NCBI GenBank assembly: GCA_964442255.1
Contig: CAYTYC010000010.1
Location: 1 to 48,536, forward strand
Length of the DNA: 48,536 nucleotides
Source: an uncultured archaeon
GTDB lineage: Archaea; Iainarchaeota; Iainarchaeia; Iainarchaeales; 1-14-0-10-31-34
Reading direction: 5' to 3'
Position numbers: made by a program. The stretch's first letter is position 1, and each line of letters begins with the position of its first letter. Positions 27,001-36,000 of the stretch are shown here, piece by piece.

Positions 27001-30000
27001 CCGGTTACCTTCAAAAAAAGGGTCGGGGAAAGCAAAGGCGTGGGGTCAAGCAAAACAAAGGGCCTGATTACGGGAATGCGGATGTGGAAAATGATCCTCC
27101 TCCACTAGCGCCTGAAAAAAATGAAAAGAAAGCCACCCAAAGAAACCAAGGAAATAATTATTGCAATCCAGTCAACCGCGGTTGGAAGGTATTTGAGTTC
27201 AAGTGTGGCCGGCTTACCTGAAAAAACCTTCATTCCATGCAAGTGCTTTTCCACAGGCACTTCCTTTCCGTCGAGGAAGGCCTTCCACCCCGGAAAATAA
27301 TTCACTTTAATGAAGGCCTCGCCAGAGGAAACCTTTGCTTTAATGTAAGTGTTTTCGTATTGCAGCAGTTCCGCGTTTTCAATTAAAGGAGCGTTTTCAG
27401 GCAAAACAAACAAGGCGGGAATTTTTCCGGGTTCCGAAACCGGAAGAAAGCCGCATCCGGAAAGGTAAGCGGAAGCGCCTTCGCTTAAGGAAACCCAGTG
27501 CGTTGTGGATGTGAGGGCAGCGCCTTCCCTGAACTCTTCACAGCCCAAACCCATGGAAACAAGTTTCCGGAATTCAAATCCTTCGCTTAAAGCATAGGCG
27601 TTATAGCCCCAGCCCAAAAGACTGCTTAAATCGTATTTCAGGGAAGAATAAGCGGAAATTATGGGGTCATAGGGAAAAACCTCAAAACGGGTTTTATGCG
27701 GGATTTGCGTTAAAAGGGCGTCAACTTCACTGAAATCCTTTACGCCCCCAAAAGAATAACTGGAAAAACGCGGCTCCTGAAGGAAGTACTGGGAATTTAT
27801 TTTCGGGACAAAAAAAACCGCAAGGAGGAGGAAAGCCGCGGCAAGCGCAAGCGAGTAAGCCGCGGTTTTTTCGCTGAAAACTTTTCGGCGGAAAAGAAAC
27901 ATTCCGGAAAGCAGGAGAACAAAAACGAAGAAAACGTGGAAGCTGTGCGCAAAAGGCTTTTCAATCAGGGGAAGGAAGGGGAAAAAGGTTTGAAGGCAGG
28001 ATAAGGCAAGGGCAAGGGCAAGCAGGCGAAAAATTCTTTCGGAAAAAGGAATGCGCTTCAGCAGGAAGAATGCGAAAACCAGGAGAAGCAAGGCAACAAA
28101 AAAATAGTTTGAGGCCATTATTCCCGCGCTCACCAACTCCAGGCCTGCCTGCGTTGAAACAACGGAAAAGGGAAGGAAAGCGAAAAAGGGAAGAACCCAA
28201 AAAGAGGTTAAGCCTGCGGAAAGCAATCCAACCGAGAAAAGTTTTTTGAGTTCCGGAAGGCTTTTCACCATCACAAGAAAGGCCGGAGCGAGAAAAAAGA
28301 GGGTTGCGGTGTGGCTTAATGCGACAAAGGAAATCGCGAGGCTGGAGAGGAGAAAGTATTTTCTGGAAAAGCCTTTTTCCTCAAGGAATTTATAGAAAAA
28401 AACGAATGCAAACAGGAAAGCAAACCAGGCAAAGAATTCATAGTAGCGGGCAAAAAACTTGAATGTTATCGGGTTCAATGCAAACACAAGGCCCGCGGTT
28501 AGGGAATAGCGCTTGTTCAGCCTGAACAGGTTTCCTATTGGAATGAATGCAAGCGGAACCAGGAGGCGGAGCACGAAAATGCTTAAAGTCAGGGGAAGGG
28601 TGAAGGCACCGAAGCCAAGGAACTTGAAGAAAAGAGGAAGGAAAGAGGGAAGAAAGCCGTCAAAGGTTGAAACCGGCACGCCAAGCAAAAGGTTTTTGCT
28701 CCAGCCCTCAAAGGCGTAATTGTATCTCAGCGCATACCCTGCGTAATCAAATCCCAAATCGTCAAAGAACTGCGTGGAAAAGGCGCTGAAAACAAGGAGA
28801 AGATAGCCGGCAACAATCACCGCATTCAATAAATCGTTTTTTGAAGGCATTTTCCGGTAAAATAAGGGGGCGCAGAGGTTAAATAAATGTTCCGCACCTG
28901 TGAAAAAGGTTTGGATGCTGAACACCAAAAATATTTAATTCAGGAACGGCTTACTGTTAAAGGTTTTTCGGGTGTCAGTGGAGGGCAACCGAAACAGGCG
29001 CTGAAAAACCAATTTCACCCCTTTTCCTGTTTTATTGTGCTTTCTTTGCGGAAACAATGCTTTTTTCACAAGCCTTTAAATTGGTTTGCCTGAAGATTAT
29101 ATAGTTAATTTTCGGATAGGGAAGGGCATGGAATTCAACCTGGAAAAATGCAGGGAAAGGCTGAAAAGCCGGGAAACGCTTTTGCTGCTCGTCATATTTC
29201 TTCTCGCGTTCGGGGTAAGGGCGCACGTGATGTCCTACGAGTACATGTTCGGGTTTGACTCGTACTTTCACGCCAGAATCGTAAGCTACGTGATACAGGA
29301 CGGGGCGGTGCCGGAAGTCGATCCCCTCGCATACTATTACAAGCCGGAGGGGGCAAGCATCGGAAACATAACCCCTGTGTTCTGGTACGGCACGGCACTG
29401 ATATACAATATTTTCACCCTGGGAACGGGATACGACAAGGAAGTGTGGATTGGCTTCGTGAAAATTTTGCCCGCATTGTTCGGGGCATTGATTGCGGTGG
29501 CAATGTATTTTTTCATGAAAGAAGCATACGGAAGAAAGGCCGGGTATGTTGCGGCACTGGTTGCGGCGGTTGTGCCGGCCTTCGTGTACAGGACAATGGC
29601 GGGGTTTTTTGAGGAAGACTCCCTCGGATTTCTGTGGCTCATAATGGGGTTCTATTTTTTCGTTAAAGCGGTTAAGCCAATGGAATTCAACAGGGAAACG
29701 GCAGCCAATGCGCTGATTGCCGCCTTCTTTTTCGTGGTGATGGCGTGGACCTGGGGAATGTTTTTGCTTGTGCCCATAGTGCTGGTCTCGTACTTCACAC
29801 TTAATTTGGCGATGATGGCGCTAAAAAAATTCAAGGCAAAAGAAATCAAGGCGTTTGCCGCGGTTTTTGCGGTGATGTTTGTTGTTTTTGCGGTTGGCGC
29901 GACACTAAAAGACCAGGGGGAATGGGCTTACCGTTCCTATGAATACGTTTCAAACTACCTTCCGGTAAGCGGGGAAAACATTGAAAGATACCAAAGCAAG

Positions 30001-33000: not shown

Positions 33001-36000
33001 TGCAGGAAAAAATTTTAAAAAATCAGGCAGAACATTGATTAATCCTTCCGCTACAAACTTGCTTGCCAGCATCCATCCCTCAAACAGGGCAAATTATCTT
33101 ACCAACTTCTATGACCGCATATCAGCTTTCGCAATTTTACATAAGCCATTTGTGCTTTCCTTGAATTTGGCAATACTTTCCTCTTTTTCTGGTTTCCTGA
33201 AGATGTATAAGTTTTCGTGTGCCAGAAGCAAAAAATTATTTTTTATTGACATGCCTTTCCAAAGGGGGGCTGTTTTAGTATTGTGCTGTGCTTTGATAAC
33301 ATTTTCTTTTAGTATGAAACCAATATCCATAAATGCCTGCAGCGTTCTCGCCGAGATTGGAACCTGGTGCTTATGCCTTCTCGTGTCTCCAATTAAAATA
33401 GCACAATATTTTCCTGGCTTTAGCACTCTCCAGAACTCTTTTGCCACTCTCTTTATTTCTTCTGTAAATTCTTCTATTGAATGAACTTTAGACAAGTCCC
33501 CAGCTTGCTTATGGTTTGAGTTTTTGGTGTAAGAGATTATGCTGGCATAAGGCGGGTGCGTTGCAATTAAATCAACGCTTTCGTCCTTTATCAGGTTTAG
33601 GTTTCTAGCGTCCCCGACATAAGTTTTCTGCGCGGCTTTTGAAAGATTTTGATTAAGAGAGCTGAAGTTAAGCCGATCTCTTGCCAGAATCAATGCTTCT
33701 TTATTTATGTCAACCGCAATGCCATTTCTTCCTGTCAGCTTGCATTCTAATAATGTTGTGCCACTGCCAACAAAAGCATCCAGAACAGCGTCCCCTTCTT
33801 TAGAATATCTCAATATGAGATTCCTTGCCACCTGTGGGGCCCAATTGCCCCTGTACTTTGCATTCAAATAATGTGTTGCCCAGTTCCCCCTTTTTGGAAA
33901 ACTCCAAACAGTATTTGTTTCCAGCTCAAAATCTTTTGGTTGCAATTCTGTTATACCCCACGGTTTTCCTATCTCGAGTTCAGTATCTTCGATAACTATT
34001 TTTTTGGTTTTTTTGACAAACTCAAGATAATCTGTTTGGGTTAGCTCCTGCATTGTAATTAATGATTCTTGAGTTTTCGGCACTAATTTTTGTTCCAGCA
34101 TGCCATCAATCCTGCTTTTTGTGGTTATTCTGGGCCCATCCCTTCATCAAACTATTAAGCTTTGTTGATACTTTAATATCCATTTTTTCACAGAGCTTCT
34201 TGAATTCTTCAAGGGTTTCCGCATCAACAGTGATTGTTATTGGAACTTTCCCCACAAAACCACCTAAAAATATTTACTTCTATGTATTTATATTTATTTT
34301 GTTGGTGTTATAAGTTTTTCACTGCCGATTTTTTGCATGAAACATATTTTATACACTACTAACGAAGGAGCCCAAATTTTTTGCCTCCCTGGAAAAAAGA
34401 AACAATCCAAATACGATTTTATTGTCAAATACCAAGAACCAAGCAAAAGGGAGAGAACCCCAAAACATATTCACCTGATTGTCGAAATGTATGTAAAGTA
34501 TGCGCACAACCCGCAATTAGCCATGAAACTAAGGGACTATTTTTTATCTATTTTTGATTCAATTAAGCCAGTTACTGCATATCCCCCAAAATTGCAAATT
34601 TTTGATAAACGCAAGATAAAGGGATTTGAAGATTTAAATAAGGTCGGAGAATTCTCAGCAGAATTTTTAATGGTTGCAACAGAACTCATACTAATTCAAG
34701 AAAAAACCAATTACCCCCAAGGCTCTCTGACAAGGAAACTCTATGCAGACTTCGGGGTTAAAGACAGATTTGCAGTAATAAGCCAAGCAACGCAGACAAG
34801 GTTTGGATAATTTTGCCAGTTTTTCCTTTCATTCATTTCTTTTCTTATGTTCTTCACATTTTTCATGATATCCGACTTTTCTTTTTCATTTAAACTGCGG
34901 CGGCTGAAGCCCGCCGGGTTTTTGCTCCCGTAAACAGCCTGCGAAAACCCCGATTCATCCGCCCATTGAAACAGGCGGGGTTCCCGGAAAGGGTTTCCAA
35001 TATTCTATGGCATCNNNNNNNNNNNNNNNNNNNNNNNNNNNNNNNNNNNNNNNNNNNNNNNNNNNNNNNNNNNNNNNNNNNNNNNNNNNNNNNNNNNNNN
35101 NNNNNNNNNNNNNNGTTCCCGGAAAGGGTTTCCAATATTCTATGGCATCCGCCATAGCCAGCGGAGCATTACCTGGAAGCTCTATCTTAAAAAAAAACTC
35201 CTGCAACGGAGAGACTTAATCCATGTAGCCTGTCCTTATGCAGTTGTCGCAAACGGTTTTACCTGAAGGTTTTCTGCTTGCGACAGCCTTTCTTGCGGCA
35301 ACGTATTTTTCGTTGTTCCAGATTCTTTTGAATCCCCCTTTGAAGGCGTTGCCGAAGTCCTCTTTTTCAAAGTAGACGCCGCAGCACGGGCTGACCGAGC
35401 CGTTTGCGTTCACAACAGAAACAAGCCAAAGGTAATAGCAGTATTTCCGCAAAAGCTTTCTGCGCTTTTCGGAGTAATCATAGCGGCTCAGCTTTTCATC
35501 CGAGGGAAGCCAGAAAGCGGTTTCCTCAATCCTTTTCCTGTCCTCCTCGTAGATTTCCTTTGCGAGGTCCCCGCGCACACAGCCCACAACAACCCTGTCA
35601 ACGCCGAGCTCTTTCCTTTTTTCCTCAAGGAGCGGAATTTCCTTTTCGTTGTGCTTCATTGCAAGGAACTGCCAGACAATCGCAGGGGTTTTGGAGCCCA
35701 GCCTTTTTCTTGCGCCGGAAACCAGCCTGAAGTTTTTGAACACCGTGTCAATTCTGCCTTTCTTCCTGTATTTTTCGTATACCTCCTGCGTGATTCCATC
35801 GGCGGAAACATACAATTGGTCAAGGCCGCTTTTCACGAGCGCTTCGGCCTGTTTTTCGTTCAGGGGAACGTTTAGGTTGGAGTTCACGCTTGTGCGGATC
35901 CTTTTTTTGTGCGCATAGTTTATTATTTCAATGAGTTCCCTGTTCAGGAATGGCTCGCCCCAGTTGTTTAAGTCTATTTCATAAAGAAAGGGGTGCATTT

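What a model noticed while it worked through the whole genome (the two positions that open the first line are those of the whole stretch)
29128..33018. One operon for oligosaccharyltransferase and the eukaryote-type chitobiose-core enzymes (AglB/STT3 - Alg7 - Alg14 - Alg1 [...]
Four co-directional, nearly abutting genes encode AglB/STT3 (g00707, 636 aa), a UDP-GlcNAc:dolichyl-phosphate GlcNAc-1-P transferase of the Alg7/AglH type (g00708), and the two halves of the split UDP-GlcNAc transferase, membrane anchor Alg14 (g00709, 148 aa) and catalytic Alg13 (g00710, 187 aa; the two overlap by 58 nt). Together they are the full set needed to make dolichol-PP-GlcNAc2 and to hand a glycan built on it to protein, so this DPANN archaeon is predicted to make N-glycans on a chitobiose core as eukaryotes and Thermoproteota do, but with the split Alg13/Alg14 enzyme instead of Agl24. 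The linkage of STT3 with Alg14 is almost confined to this order.
Evidence so far: pfam.tsv/ncbifam.tsv/swissprot.tsv rows: g00708 37.5% identical to Sulfolobus gnpTA over 312 aa (E 2e-48); g00709 and g00710 hit only eukaryotic ALG14 and ALG13 in Swiss-Prot (32-42%, E 1e-7). neighbours.tsv: STT3 within two genes of Alg14 in at least 67 of 195 Iainarchaeales genomes and in 75 of all 199,903 genomes (393 have both); AglB_core-like with Alg14 27 of 27 in this order; Alg14 occurs in 131 of 195 genomes of the order against 461 of 10,117 archaea.
(Added by a program. Inside this text positions count along the whole contig: contig position 1 is position 1 of the stretch shown here. "Call 12" and the like, gene names such as g00115 and contig names such as C1 are that model's own, and its searches are not shown. 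The text may have been shortened before it was handed on; [...] marks where a part breaks off. The agent that wrote the report below was given it as the finding of a first reader that could run no searches.)

Follow-up and report, generated by a model that had tools for sequence, protein, structure and literature searches.

The report
Archaeal N-glycosylation core operon
A small DPANN archaeon keeps the enzyme that attaches sugar chains to proteins in one operon with three enzymes that build the first two sugars on a lipid carrier, much like the first steps of the eukaryotic pathway, but which sugar goes second is not proven.

Summary
The four genes are real: AglB/STT3 (29128-31038), an Alg7/AglH-type phospho-sugar transferase (31055-32050), Alg14-like (32066-32512) and Alg13-like (to 33018), separated by 16 and 15 nt. 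The reported 58-nt overlap is probably a start-codon artefact; a TTG at 32509 gives a 4-nt overlap.

The linkage is strongly conserved. Alg14 occurs in 145 of 196 genomes of the order, and at least 86 of these have STT3 within 6 kb.

The Alg14/13 pair is of the prokaryotic PssD/PssE (EpsE/EpsF) type. It is 40-43% identical to Lactobacillales proteins and only faintly similar to yeast Alg13. It belongs to an archaeal clade that sits beside an Alg7-type primer. Bacterial relatives sit beside a different (PHPT) primer or none.

I read this as an N-glycan initiation and transfer module: Dol-PP-HexNAc, a second sugar added by the split enzyme, then transfer by AglB. A chitobiose core is plausible (about 0.5) but not shown.

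The linkage is not confined to this order, because some Aenigmatarchaeota share it. Natural fusions (Alg14-Alg13, Alg13-GT2), a new GT-C enzyme and a flippase-like gene belong to the same cluster in relatives.

The parts
29128..31038 (+). AglB/STT3 oligosaccharyltransferase, 636 aa from ATG 29128 (the ORF is open from TTG 29086). It is the only STT3 in the genome.
   Evidence: Pfam STT3 E 3.4e-20 and AglB_core-like E 2.1e-11. There is a single STT3 match in the genome. Motifs shared with most of the 31 orthologues: FDSYxHAR, YRTMAGFFE[ED]D, [TS][VI]GEE, NWWDxGHW (WWDEG here) and DNRN.
31055..32050 (+). Polyprenyl-phosphate HexNAc-1-phosphate transferase of the Alg7/AglH/DPAGT1 type (PNPT). Proposed to make Dol-PP-GlcNAc.
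   Evidence: Pfam PF00953 E 4.5e-33. Best solved relative is human DPAGT1, E 1.5e-15, against MraY at 2e-10. D100 D101, N163, N166, G170 and E175 are invariant in 25 orthologues. All NCBIfam MraY and WecA models score far below their cut-offs.
32066..32512 (+). Alg14-like N-terminal (acceptor-side) half of a split MurG-type GT-B glycosyltransferase. It has no N-terminal membrane anchor.
   Evidence: Pfam Alg14 E 1.7e-19. NCBIfam PssD/Cps14F scores 150 bits against a cut-off of 110. G10 G11 H12 and E105 are invariant. The sequence starts MKVCLVCSAGGH.
32509..33018 (+). Alg13-like C-terminal (nucleotide-sugar) half. The likely start is TTG 32509 (169 aa, 4-nt overlap); the alternative is ATG 32455 (187 aa, 58-nt overlap).
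   Evidence: Pfam Glyco_tran_28_C E 1.8e-18. NCBIfam PssE/Cps14G scores 122.3 against a cut-off of 120. It is the only PF04101 match in the genome. In the regions many orthologues start at the Alg14 stop. A natural Alg14-Alg13 fusion occurs in G165.
38672..39556 (+). GT2 glycosyltransferase, the candidate third-step enzyme. It lies 5.6 kb downstream here but directly follows Alg13 in relatives.
   Evidence: Pfam Glycos_transf_2 E 9.9e-33. A homologue of 47-60% identity follows Alg13 directly, or is fused to it, in 12 of the 40 regions I fetched. The fusion proteins of G179 and G182 carry Glyco_tran_28_C plus Glycos_transf_2.
27105..28850 (-). GT-C fold membrane glycosyltransferase with no Pfam family. 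The ORF is open to 28928; the likely start is ATG 28850.
   Evidence: No Pfam hit at E up to 1. AlphaFold2 model has pLDDT 89.1 and pTM 0.88. Foldseek hits include AftD, STT3, AglB, DPY19, PglB and ArnT, at E 9e-7 to 4e-2 and TM 0.44-0.57. D30 and D35 are invariant in the first loop. It lies next to the Alg13 cluster in relatives.
26194..27108 (+). GT2 of the AglJ / dolichyl-phosphate-hexose synthase type, convergent with the GT-C gene.
   Evidence: Pfam Glycos_transf_2 E 7.1e-16. NCBIfam AglJ E 1.2e-27 and Dol-P-hexose transferase E 8.4e-18, both below their cut-offs. It is paired with the GT-C gene in 10 of 15 full-length homologue loci.
36410..47680 (+). The rest of the glycosylation island. 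It holds a GT4, two epimerase/dehydratase genes, dTDP-glucose 4,6-dehydratase, an inositol-monophosphatase family gene, a sugar-1-P nucleotidyltransferase, a B12 radical-SAM gene and two further GT4 genes.
   Evidence: Pfam and NCBIfam matches. dTDP-glucose 4,6-dehydratase scores 425.8 bits against a cut-off of 365.

Best explanation
This is a co-transcribed core module for protein N-glycosylation.

1. The Alg7/AglH-type transferase puts HexNAc-1-phosphate, most likely GlcNAc-1-P, on dolichyl phosphate at the cytoplasmic face.
2. The soluble Alg14-like and Alg13-like halves assemble into one MurG-type GT-B enzyme. This enzyme adds the second sugar, most likely beta-1,4-GlcNAc, which would give a chitobiose core.
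3. A conserved GT2 and further GTs of the island extend the glycan.
4. After flipping, AglB transfers the glycan to asparagine.

Shown here: the gene identities, the operon structure, its conservation, and the pairing of this Alg14/13 clade with a PNPT primer instead of a PHPT primer.

Inferred: co-transcription, both sugar identities, the linkage, the dolichol pyrophosphate carrier, and the physical complex.
For: Gene arrangement:
- The genes are tightly spaced and co-directional.
- The operon holds the only STT3 and the only GT28-C gene of the genome.
- STT3 lies within 6 kb of Alg14 in at least 86 of 145 Alg14-bearing genomes of the order.
- I fetched 40 regions: 31 because STT3 was near and 9 as exceptions. 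The primer is present in 34, and directly upstream of Alg14 in 25.

Natural fusions:
- Alg14-Alg13 is fused in G165, and Alg13-GT2 in G179 and G182. These tie steps 2 and 3 together.

Primer type:
- All 8 archaeal loci from the genome scan have the PNPT primer.
- Of 75 bacterial loci, none has it. 38 have an EpsD-like PHPT, directly upstream in 34.
- The genome has no PHPT.

Phylogeny:
- Archaeal primer-linked pairs form one clade. FastTree: 44 rows, SH-like support 98. IQ-TREE mixture model: 23 archaeal rows plus one long-branch Herpetosiphon row, SH-aLRT 96.

Primer and catalytic residues:
- The primer's nearest solved relative is DPAGT1.
- The GGH motif and conserved Glu that Meyer et al. 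found essential in Agl24 (PMC8993221, passages) are invariant here.

Substrate supply and donor:
- GlmS is present.
- Agl24 and eukaryotic Alg13/14 use UDP-GlcNAc (passages), as does MurG (recalled). These are the characterised family members that act on a HexNAc-PP-lipid.
Against: - By sequence the pair is closer to bacterial EpsE/EpsF-type enzymes than to eukaryotic Alg13. The EpsE/EpsF-type enzymes transfer Glc or Gal (PMC8993221 passage).
- The donor-side motifs I compared (HGGAG[TS], GEHxxDHQ) are shared with the bacterial enzymes, so they do not tell the sugars apart.
- The eukaryote-proximal, Methanomethylicia-like pair in this order is a different one.
- No complete GlmU scores above its cut-off.
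- An AglJ/AglK-like GT2 lies next door. It could prime a glycan on dolichyl monophosphate instead. This happens in Methanococcus voltae, where the AglH homologue is not the initiating enzyme (recalled, not from a call).
- There are no expression or glycan data.
Confidence: 0.5

Rival explanations
1. The module is the same, but the split enzyme adds a sugar other than GlcNAc to Dol-PP-HexNAc: Glc, Gal, GlcA or another HexNAc. The core would then not be chitobiose.
For: - The pair passes NCBI's PssD/PssE equivalog cut-offs.
- It is 40-43% identical to Lactobacillales PssD and 36% to pNZ4000 EpsE.
- EpsE/EpsF transfer Glc or Gal (PMC8993221 passage). WelK-type fusions are annotated as glucuronosyltransferases.
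- The family therefore changes donor readily.
- The island encodes several sugar-nucleotide modifying enzymes.
Against: - All characterised bacterial members act on Glc-PP-lipid made by a PHPT. That primer is absent here.
- The archaeal clade is separate from the clades that hold the Streptococcus and pNZ4000 pairs.
- Family members that act on a HexNAc-PP-lipid use UDP-GlcNAc.
Confidence: 0.3
2. N-glycans are primed on dolichyl monophosphate by a GT2 of the AglJ/AglK type. The primer-Alg14-Alg13 trio would then make a different lipid-linked glycoconjugate that merely shares the locus.
For: - An AglJ-like GT2 lies 2 kb upstream.
- In Methanococcus voltae the AglH homologue is not the initiating enzyme (recalled, not from a call).
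- In family f13 the trio is split: AglB-primer and Alg14-Alg13 are divergent units.
Against: - The primer sits between AglB and Alg14 in most regions examined.
- The AglJ-like GT2 is instead paired with the GT-C gene. It is found with it in only 18 of 196 genomes of the order, whereas Alg14 is in 145.
Confidence: 0.1
3. The cluster makes an exopolysaccharide or capsule, as bacterial eps/cps loci do, and the neighbourhood with AglB is incidental.
For: The Alg14/13 pair carries PssD/PssE family names. Many GTs and sugar-nucleotide genes lie nearby.
Against: - No PHPT, Wzz, tyrosine kinase or phosphatase, or Wzy-type family was found among the genes scanned between 23 and 48 kb.
- pNZ4000 and the L. 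buchneri plasmid have these genes directly upstream.
- The AglB linkage recurs across many families of the order.
Confidence: 0.05

Closest known systems
Eukaryotic initiation complex Alg7 (DPAGT1) + Alg14/Alg13, with STT3
   Same: It has the same three enzyme families plus the transferase. The MurG-type enzyme is split at the same place. A PNPT primer stands next to the Alg14 half. The GGH and Glu catalytic residues are kept.
   Different: Alg14 has no membrane anchor. Sequence similarity to eukaryotic Alg13 is very weak (E 0.018). The pair falls in the prokaryotic PssD/PssE family. The genes form an operon. The sugars are unknown.
Sulfolobus acidocaldarius AglH + Agl24 + AglB (chitobiose core; PMC8993221)
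   Same: It is an archaeal system with a PNPT primer, a MurG-like second-step enzyme with the GGH and Glu motifs, and a predicted Dol-PP-linked donor for AglB.
   Different: Agl24 is a single fused polypeptide of another clade, according to the paper's passages. Here the enzyme is split, and it is clustered with AglB.
Bacterial EpsD-EpsE-EpsF (Lactococcus pNZ4000) and Cps14E-F-G type loci
   Same: These are the nearest characterised relatives of the Alg14/13 pair (36-43% identity). The gene order is the same: primer, Alg14-like, Alg13-like, then the next GT.
   Different: The bacterial primer is a PHPT 'sugar transferase', not a PNPT. It is present in 38 of 75 bacterial loci, and the PNPT in none. 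The bacterial loci carry Wzz, kinase and phosphatase genes, have no oligosaccharyltransferase, and their donors are Glc or Gal.
MraY + MurG of peptidoglycan synthesis
   Same: It pairs a PNPT with a GT28-type enzyme that acts on the lipid-PP-HexNAc product.
   Different: The MraY and MurG NCBIfam models score far below their cut-offs. MurG is fused. The organism has no murein context.

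Membership tests
STT3/AglB oligosaccharyltransferase | STT3 membrane domain above the Pfam cut-off | tested here: met
   73.4 bits against 24.5, plus AglB_core-like at 44.6 against 27.
STT3/AglB oligosaccharyltransferase | WWDxG motif after the last membrane helix, and acidic residues in the first loop (motif names recalled) | tested here: met
   The window has NWWDEGHW. 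WWD is kept in most of the 31 orthologues; some have WWN, WWG, WWS or WWE. FDSYxHAR, FFE[ED]D and [TS][VI]GEE are conserved.
STT3/AglB oligosaccharyltransferase | DK or MI motif (recalled) | tested here: inconclusive
   The region 495-525 aligns poorly and shows no clear DxxK or MxxI.
NCBIfam TIGR04154 archaeosortase-A-associated STT3 | Score above the curated cut-off | tested here: not met
   149.1 bits against a cut-off of 450.
PNPT (Alg7/AglH/DPAGT1/WecA/MraY superfamily) | PF00953 domain, with the DD and NxxNxxxGxNGLE-type motifs | tested here: met
   114.9 bits against 27. D100 D101, N163, N166, G170 and E175 are invariant. The stretch aligns to DPAGT1.
Alg7/AglH subtype (UDP-GlcNAc:Dol-P GlcNAc-1-P transferase) | Closer to eukaryotic or archaeal GPT than to MraY or WecA | tested here: met
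DPAGT1 E 1.5e-15 against MraY 2e-10. The NCBIfam MraY and WecA models are far below cut-off.
Alg7/AglH subtype | GlcNAc-1-P transfer to dolichyl phosphate | not testable with these tools
   This needs an enzyme assay or yeast alg7 complementation.
Alg14 (PF08660) / PssD-Cps14F | Family score above cut-off, with the GGH loop and a conserved Glu | tested here: met
   Pfam 70.9 against 27 (only model positions 76-170 match). NCBIfam 150 against 110. G10 G11 H12 and E105 are invariant.
Eukaryotic Alg14 | N-terminal membrane anchor | tested here: not met
   The protein has 148 aa and starts MKVCLVCSAGGH, directly at the GGH loop.
Alg13 (PF04101) / PssE-Cps14G | Family score above cut-off | tested here: met
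   Pfam 67.5 against 22. NCBIfam 122.3 against 120, a marginal pass.
Eukaryotic Alg13/14 UDP-GlcNAc transferase | UDP-GlcNAc donor and Dol-PP-GlcNAc acceptor | not testable with these tools
   Donor-side motifs are shared with the Glc and Gal transferases. No solved Alg13/14 complex exists to compare with.
Eukaryotic Alg13/14 UDP-GlcNAc transferase | Phylogenetic placement with eukaryotic sequences | not tested
   No eukaryotic sequence could be fetched; the top-120 lists held none. Meyer et al. place the archaeal split sequences, which they say come mainly from Euryarchaeota and DPANN, among bacterial EpsE/F (passage).
Bacterial EpsE/EpsF-type exopolysaccharide locus | PHPT primer next to the pair | tested here: not met
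   No PF02397 match in the genome. No PHPT in the 48 archaeal loci, against 38 of 75 bacterial loci.
Bacterial EpsE/EpsF-type exopolysaccharide locus | Chain-length regulator, tyrosine kinase and phosphatase genes in the locus | tested here: not met
   None was found among the genes scanned at 23-48 kb. They are present in pNZ4000 and pCD034-3.

The most novel reading that the evidence does not exclude
Iainarchaeales and some other DPANN archaea make a Dol-PP-GlcNAc2 (chitobiose) core with a split Alg14/Alg13 enzyme that works beside an Alg7-type primer. This would be an archaeal counterpart of the eukaryotic initiation complex, encoded with its oligosaccharyltransferase in one operon. It would follow that the split enzyme already served N-glycosylation in archaea, and that the bacterial Eps/Cps enzymes are the derived users. 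The flippase-like PF03706 gene that follows Alg13 in at least 12 genomes would be a candidate for the unidentified archaeal flippase of lipid-linked oligosaccharides.
Probability: 0.25. Interest if true: 0.8.

Novelty: new variant of a known kind. Interest (0 to 1): 0.6.

Why it matters
- No N-glycan or pathway has been described for this phylum. Three full-text searches found no paper on it. They also found none that links split Alg14/13 genes to AglB.
- The published trees treat archaeal split sequences as scattered EpsE/F-like transfers (PMC4973528 and PMC8993221, passages).
- Here the pair is a stable part of an AglB operon across most of an order, always beside a PNPT primer. That gives it a defined job.
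- It also gives a compact four- to five-gene set that can be expressed and assayed. Such an assay would ask whether a chitobiose core exists outside Thermoproteota and eukaryotes.
- The result bears on whether eukaryotic Alg13/14 came from an archaeal N-glycosylation enzyme or from a bacterial exopolysaccharide enzyme.

Tried and rejected
- **Complex prediction.** Primer against Alg14 plus Alg13, using 25-row alignments. The tool gave no answer, so nothing can be drawn from it.
- **Expression.** No RNA holder was listed. The DNA stands in two runs of one microbial-mat metagenome study. Co-transcription therefore rests on spacing only.
- **Donor sugar from motifs.** The HGGAG[TS] and GEHxxDHQ stretches are shared between the archaeal clade and bacterial pairs, including pNZ4000 EpsF. 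I rejected this as a discriminator.
- **Eukaryotic and Asgard sequences for the tree.** The two homologue searches listed only prokaryotic or unnamed proteins in their best 120. No tree with eukaryotes was built.
- **Solved structures.** There is no relative of Alg14, and only yeast Alg13 at E 0.018.
- **AglB DK/MI motif.** Not recognisable.
- **Sequons in the 987-aa NosD-like surface protein.** It has 25, against 21.0 +/- 3.9 in shuffles; 185 of 1000 shuffles were as high. There is no enrichment.
- **Close orthologue of the operon-linked PF03706 gene in the window.** None by tblastn. The two PF03706 genes elsewhere in the genome are only distantly similar.
- One search failed on a wrong reference of mine and was repeated without it. 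One search failed on a wrong argument and was redone through a handle.

Full report
**Observation**

The region holds four co-directional ORFs.
- 29086/29128-31038 matches Pfam STT3 (E 3.4e-20) and AglB_core-like.
- 31055-32050 matches Glycos_transf_4, PF00953 (E 4.5e-33).
- 32066-32512 matches Alg14 (E 1.7e-19, C-terminal half of the model only).
- 32455-33018 matches Glyco_tran_28_C (E 1.8e-18).

NCBIfam files the last two above its curated cut-offs, as PssD/Cps14F (150 against 110 bits) and PssE/Cps14G (122.3 against 120). The intergenic gaps are 16 and 15 nt.

The 58-nt overlap of the last two genes depends on the ATG at 32455. That ATG lies inside the codons for the conserved Q-W of Alg14 (CAATGG). 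An in-frame TTG at 32509 overlaps the TGA stop by 4 nt. The family match starts at residue 22-23 of the long form. In many relatives the Alg13 ORF begins at the Alg14 stop. I therefore take 169 aa from 32509 as the more likely product.

The next gene downstream is convergent, so the unit ends at 33018. The genome has 1.28 Mb and is 93.8% complete. It has one STT3 match, one PF04101 match and two PF00953 matches.

**Conservation**

In the 196 genomes of the order, a six-frame search finds Alg14 in 145, and in 50 of 55 high-quality ones. STT3 is found in 174; 150 matches were listed and 45 were not.

I compared the two tables:
- 68 genomes have STT3 co-directionally upstream of Alg14 within 6 kb. 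The distance is mostly 3.0-3.5 kb, which is the size of AglB plus the primer.
- 18 genomes, all of family f13, have the two divergently arranged, 1.1-2.6 kb apart.
- 5 genomes have them further apart on one contig.
- 25 genomes have them on different contigs.
- 29 genomes have no listed STT3.

So at least 86 of 145 Alg14-bearing genomes show the linkage.

I fetched 40 regions: 31 chosen because STT3 was near and 9 as exceptions. The primer is present in 34 and directly upstream of Alg14 in 25. AglB lies within 6 kb in 33.

A GT2 that is 47-60% identical to window gene 38672-39556 follows Alg13 directly, or is fused to it, in 12 of the 40 regions. In the window and in G072 and G163, a GT4 and an epimerase stand between Alg13 and this GT2.

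Pfam confirms a natural Alg14-Alg13 fusion (G165) and two Alg13-GT2 fusions (G179, G182). Relatives named by their records are 'Candidatus Iainarchaeum'.

**What kind of Alg14/13 this is**
- A tblastn search of plasmids gives 57 records. The best are Lactobacillales pssD at 40-43% identity (E to 1e-33). The EpsE gene of Lactococcus pNZ4000 is at 36%.
- Yeast Alg13 in the PDB matches only at E 0.018 over 45 residues. Alg14 has no solved relative.
- Meyer et al. [quoted passage not shown] They place eukaryotes with Thor- or Odinarchaeota and near Verstraetearchaeota.
- Lombard 2016 (PMC4973528, passages) regarded archaeal split sequences as transfers from bacteria.
- Three genomes of the order (G036, G028, G006) carry a second kind of pair, only 30-38% identical to the window's. 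No primer or AglB was found in the 5-7 kb fetched around it.
- The nearest named relatives of that second pair are Methanosuratincola and a Methanomethylicia archaeon, at 48-50% identity. The eukaryote-proximal type of the published tree is therefore this other pair, not the operon's.

**The informative contrast is the primer**

A scan of species-representative genomes returned 8 archaeal and 72 bacterial loci. I added three plasmid loci.
- All 8 archaeal loci carry the PNPT primer, which lies directly upstream in 6. These are Iainarchaeum, one Hydrothermarchaeota and one Aenigmatarchaeota.
- None of the 75 bacterial loci carries it.
- 38 of the 75 bacterial loci carry an EpsD-like PHPT, directly upstream in 34.
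- No PHPT was seen in the 48 archaeal loci. PF02397 has no match in the window's genome.

In a tree of joined Alg14+Alg13, all 44 archaeal primer-linked rows form one clade (FastTree, SH-like 98). With a mixture model on 46 rows, the clade holds the 23 archaeal rows plus one long-branch Herpetosiphon plasmid row of uncertain place (SH-aLRT 96). The Streptococcus/Lactobacillales clade, the pNZ4000 clade and the G036-type clade stand apart.

The primer's best solved relative is human DPAGT1 (E 1.5e-15), ahead of MraY (2e-10). Its DD and NxxNxxxGxNGLE-type residues are invariant in 25 orthologues. In Alg14, the GGH loop and a Glu are invariant. These correspond to the residues Meyer et al. describe for Agl24.

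AglB keeps FDSYxHAR, FFE[ED]D, [TS][VI]GEE, NWWDxGHW and DNRN. The motif names are recalled.

**Mechanism**

The best reading is an N-glycan initiation and transfer module.
1. The primer makes Dol-PP-HexNAc.
2. The two soluble halves form one GT-B enzyme that adds the second sugar.
3. The GT2 adds a third sugar.
4. AglB transfers the finished glycan.

The acceptor side resembles eukaryotes and Sulfolobus. The donor is open.

For GlcNAc:
- The characterised family members that act on a HexNAc-PP-lipid use UDP-GlcNAc: Agl24 and Alg13/14 (passages) and MurG (recalled).
- GlmS is present.

Against GlcNAc:
- The nearest characterised relatives use Glc or Gal (passage).
- The donor-side motifs do not discriminate.
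- No full GlmU scores above its cut-off.

I put the module at about 0.8, and GlcNAc as the second sugar at about 0.6 given the module.

**Reach beyond the order**

In a sample of 151 Aenigmatarchaeota genomes, 34 have Alg14. I fetched 20 of these loci. 8 have the primer within 7 kb and 3 have AglB. One (G251) has AglB-primer-Alg14-Alg13-GT2 in the same order. The full operon is concentrated in Iainarchaeales, but the primer-Alg14-Alg13 module is wider.

**Surroundings**

The window from 26 to 48 kb is a glycosylation island.

The 607-aa ORF on the minus strand upstream of AglB has no Pfam family.
- Its AlphaFold2 model has pLDDT 89.1. It matches GT-C enzymes such as AftD, STT3, AglB, DPY19, PglB and ArnT.
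- Two Asp residues in the first loop are invariant.
- It forms a convergent pair with the AglJ-like GT2 in 10 of 15 full-length homologue loci. In the window's own family it lies just after Alg13.
- It occurs in 18 of 196 genomes of the order.
- This suggests a Dol-P-hexose synthase plus an outer-face transferase.

In at least 12 genomes a PF03706 flippase-like gene directly follows Alg13. The window has none.

The genome's second PNPT (33% identical to the first) lies next to another PF03706-type gene on contig 13.

**Limits**
- There is no expression evidence and no binding evidence.
- There is no tree with eukaryotic sequences and no glycan data.
- Supplements of the cited papers, which hold the uncollapsed trees, were not read. 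They may already show these DPANN sequences.

Noticed in passing
window 27105-28928 (-): This membrane protein has no Pfam family but has a GT-C glycosyltransferase fold by predicted structure. Its top matches are AftD, STT3, AglB, DPY19 and PglB, and D30 and D35 are invariant. It is conserved as a convergent pair with the AglJ-like GT2 at 26194-27108 and lies next to the Alg13 cluster in relatives. It is possibly an outer-face Dol-P-hexose-dependent transferase.
   Followed up: yes
L006:6571-7557 (G014) and homologues in L015, L016, L027, L052, L138-L141, L143, L144, L146, L148, L155: A PF03706 (LPG_synthase_TM, 'flippase-like') gene directly follows Alg13 in at least 12 genomes of the order. 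It is absent from the window. It is a candidate flippase of the pathway.
   Followed up: partly
L034:4748-6280, L035:2817-4223 (-), L026:5701-6675: Natural gene fusions occur in relatives. Alg13-GT2 is fused in G179 and G182 (510 and 468 aa). Alg14-Alg13 is fused in G165 (324 aa).
   Followed up: yes
L037:3996-4936, L038, L039 (G036, G028, G006): These genomes carry a second, different Alg14/13 pair. It is 30-38% identical to the window's and 48-50% identical to the Alg14 of Methanosuratincola and a Methanomethylicia archaeon. No primer or AglB was found in the 5-7 kb fetched around it.
   Followed up: partly
G000:C13 (L003:1198-2148 -, L003:243-1217 +): A second PNPT paralogue (33% identical, no NCBIfam match) lies beside a flippase-like TIGR00374/PF03706 gene and TruD.
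   Followed up: partly
window 32455-32512: The ATG that creates the 58-nt overlap lies in the CAATGG coding for the conserved Q-W of Alg14. The same apparent 57-58-nt overlap recurs in several relatives, so it looks like a by-product of Alg14 conservation.
   Followed up: partly
window 33109-36361: Between Alg13 and the next GT lie three genes: a DNA-methylase-family methyltransferase (-), a 157-aa ORF with no family (+), and a radical-SAM/SPASM gene (-). The radical-SAM gene also recurs near the cluster in G152, G168 and G153.
   Followed up: no
window 9554-12517 (-): This 987-aa NosD/beta-helix protein has a signal-like N-terminus and 25 N-x-S/T sequons. The count is not more than in shuffles. 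It is a possible glycoprotein substrate.
   Followed up: partly
window 24688-25673: An ArsR-like HTH plus nucleotidyltransferase gene overlaps a HEPN-domain gene. This is the layout of a MntA/HepT-type toxin-antitoxin pair.
   Followed up: no
window 43062-44495: A B12-binding radical-SAM gene scores 399.8 bits against the HpnJ model (cut-off 577.6). It sits within the sugar-nucleotide part of the island.
   Followed up: no
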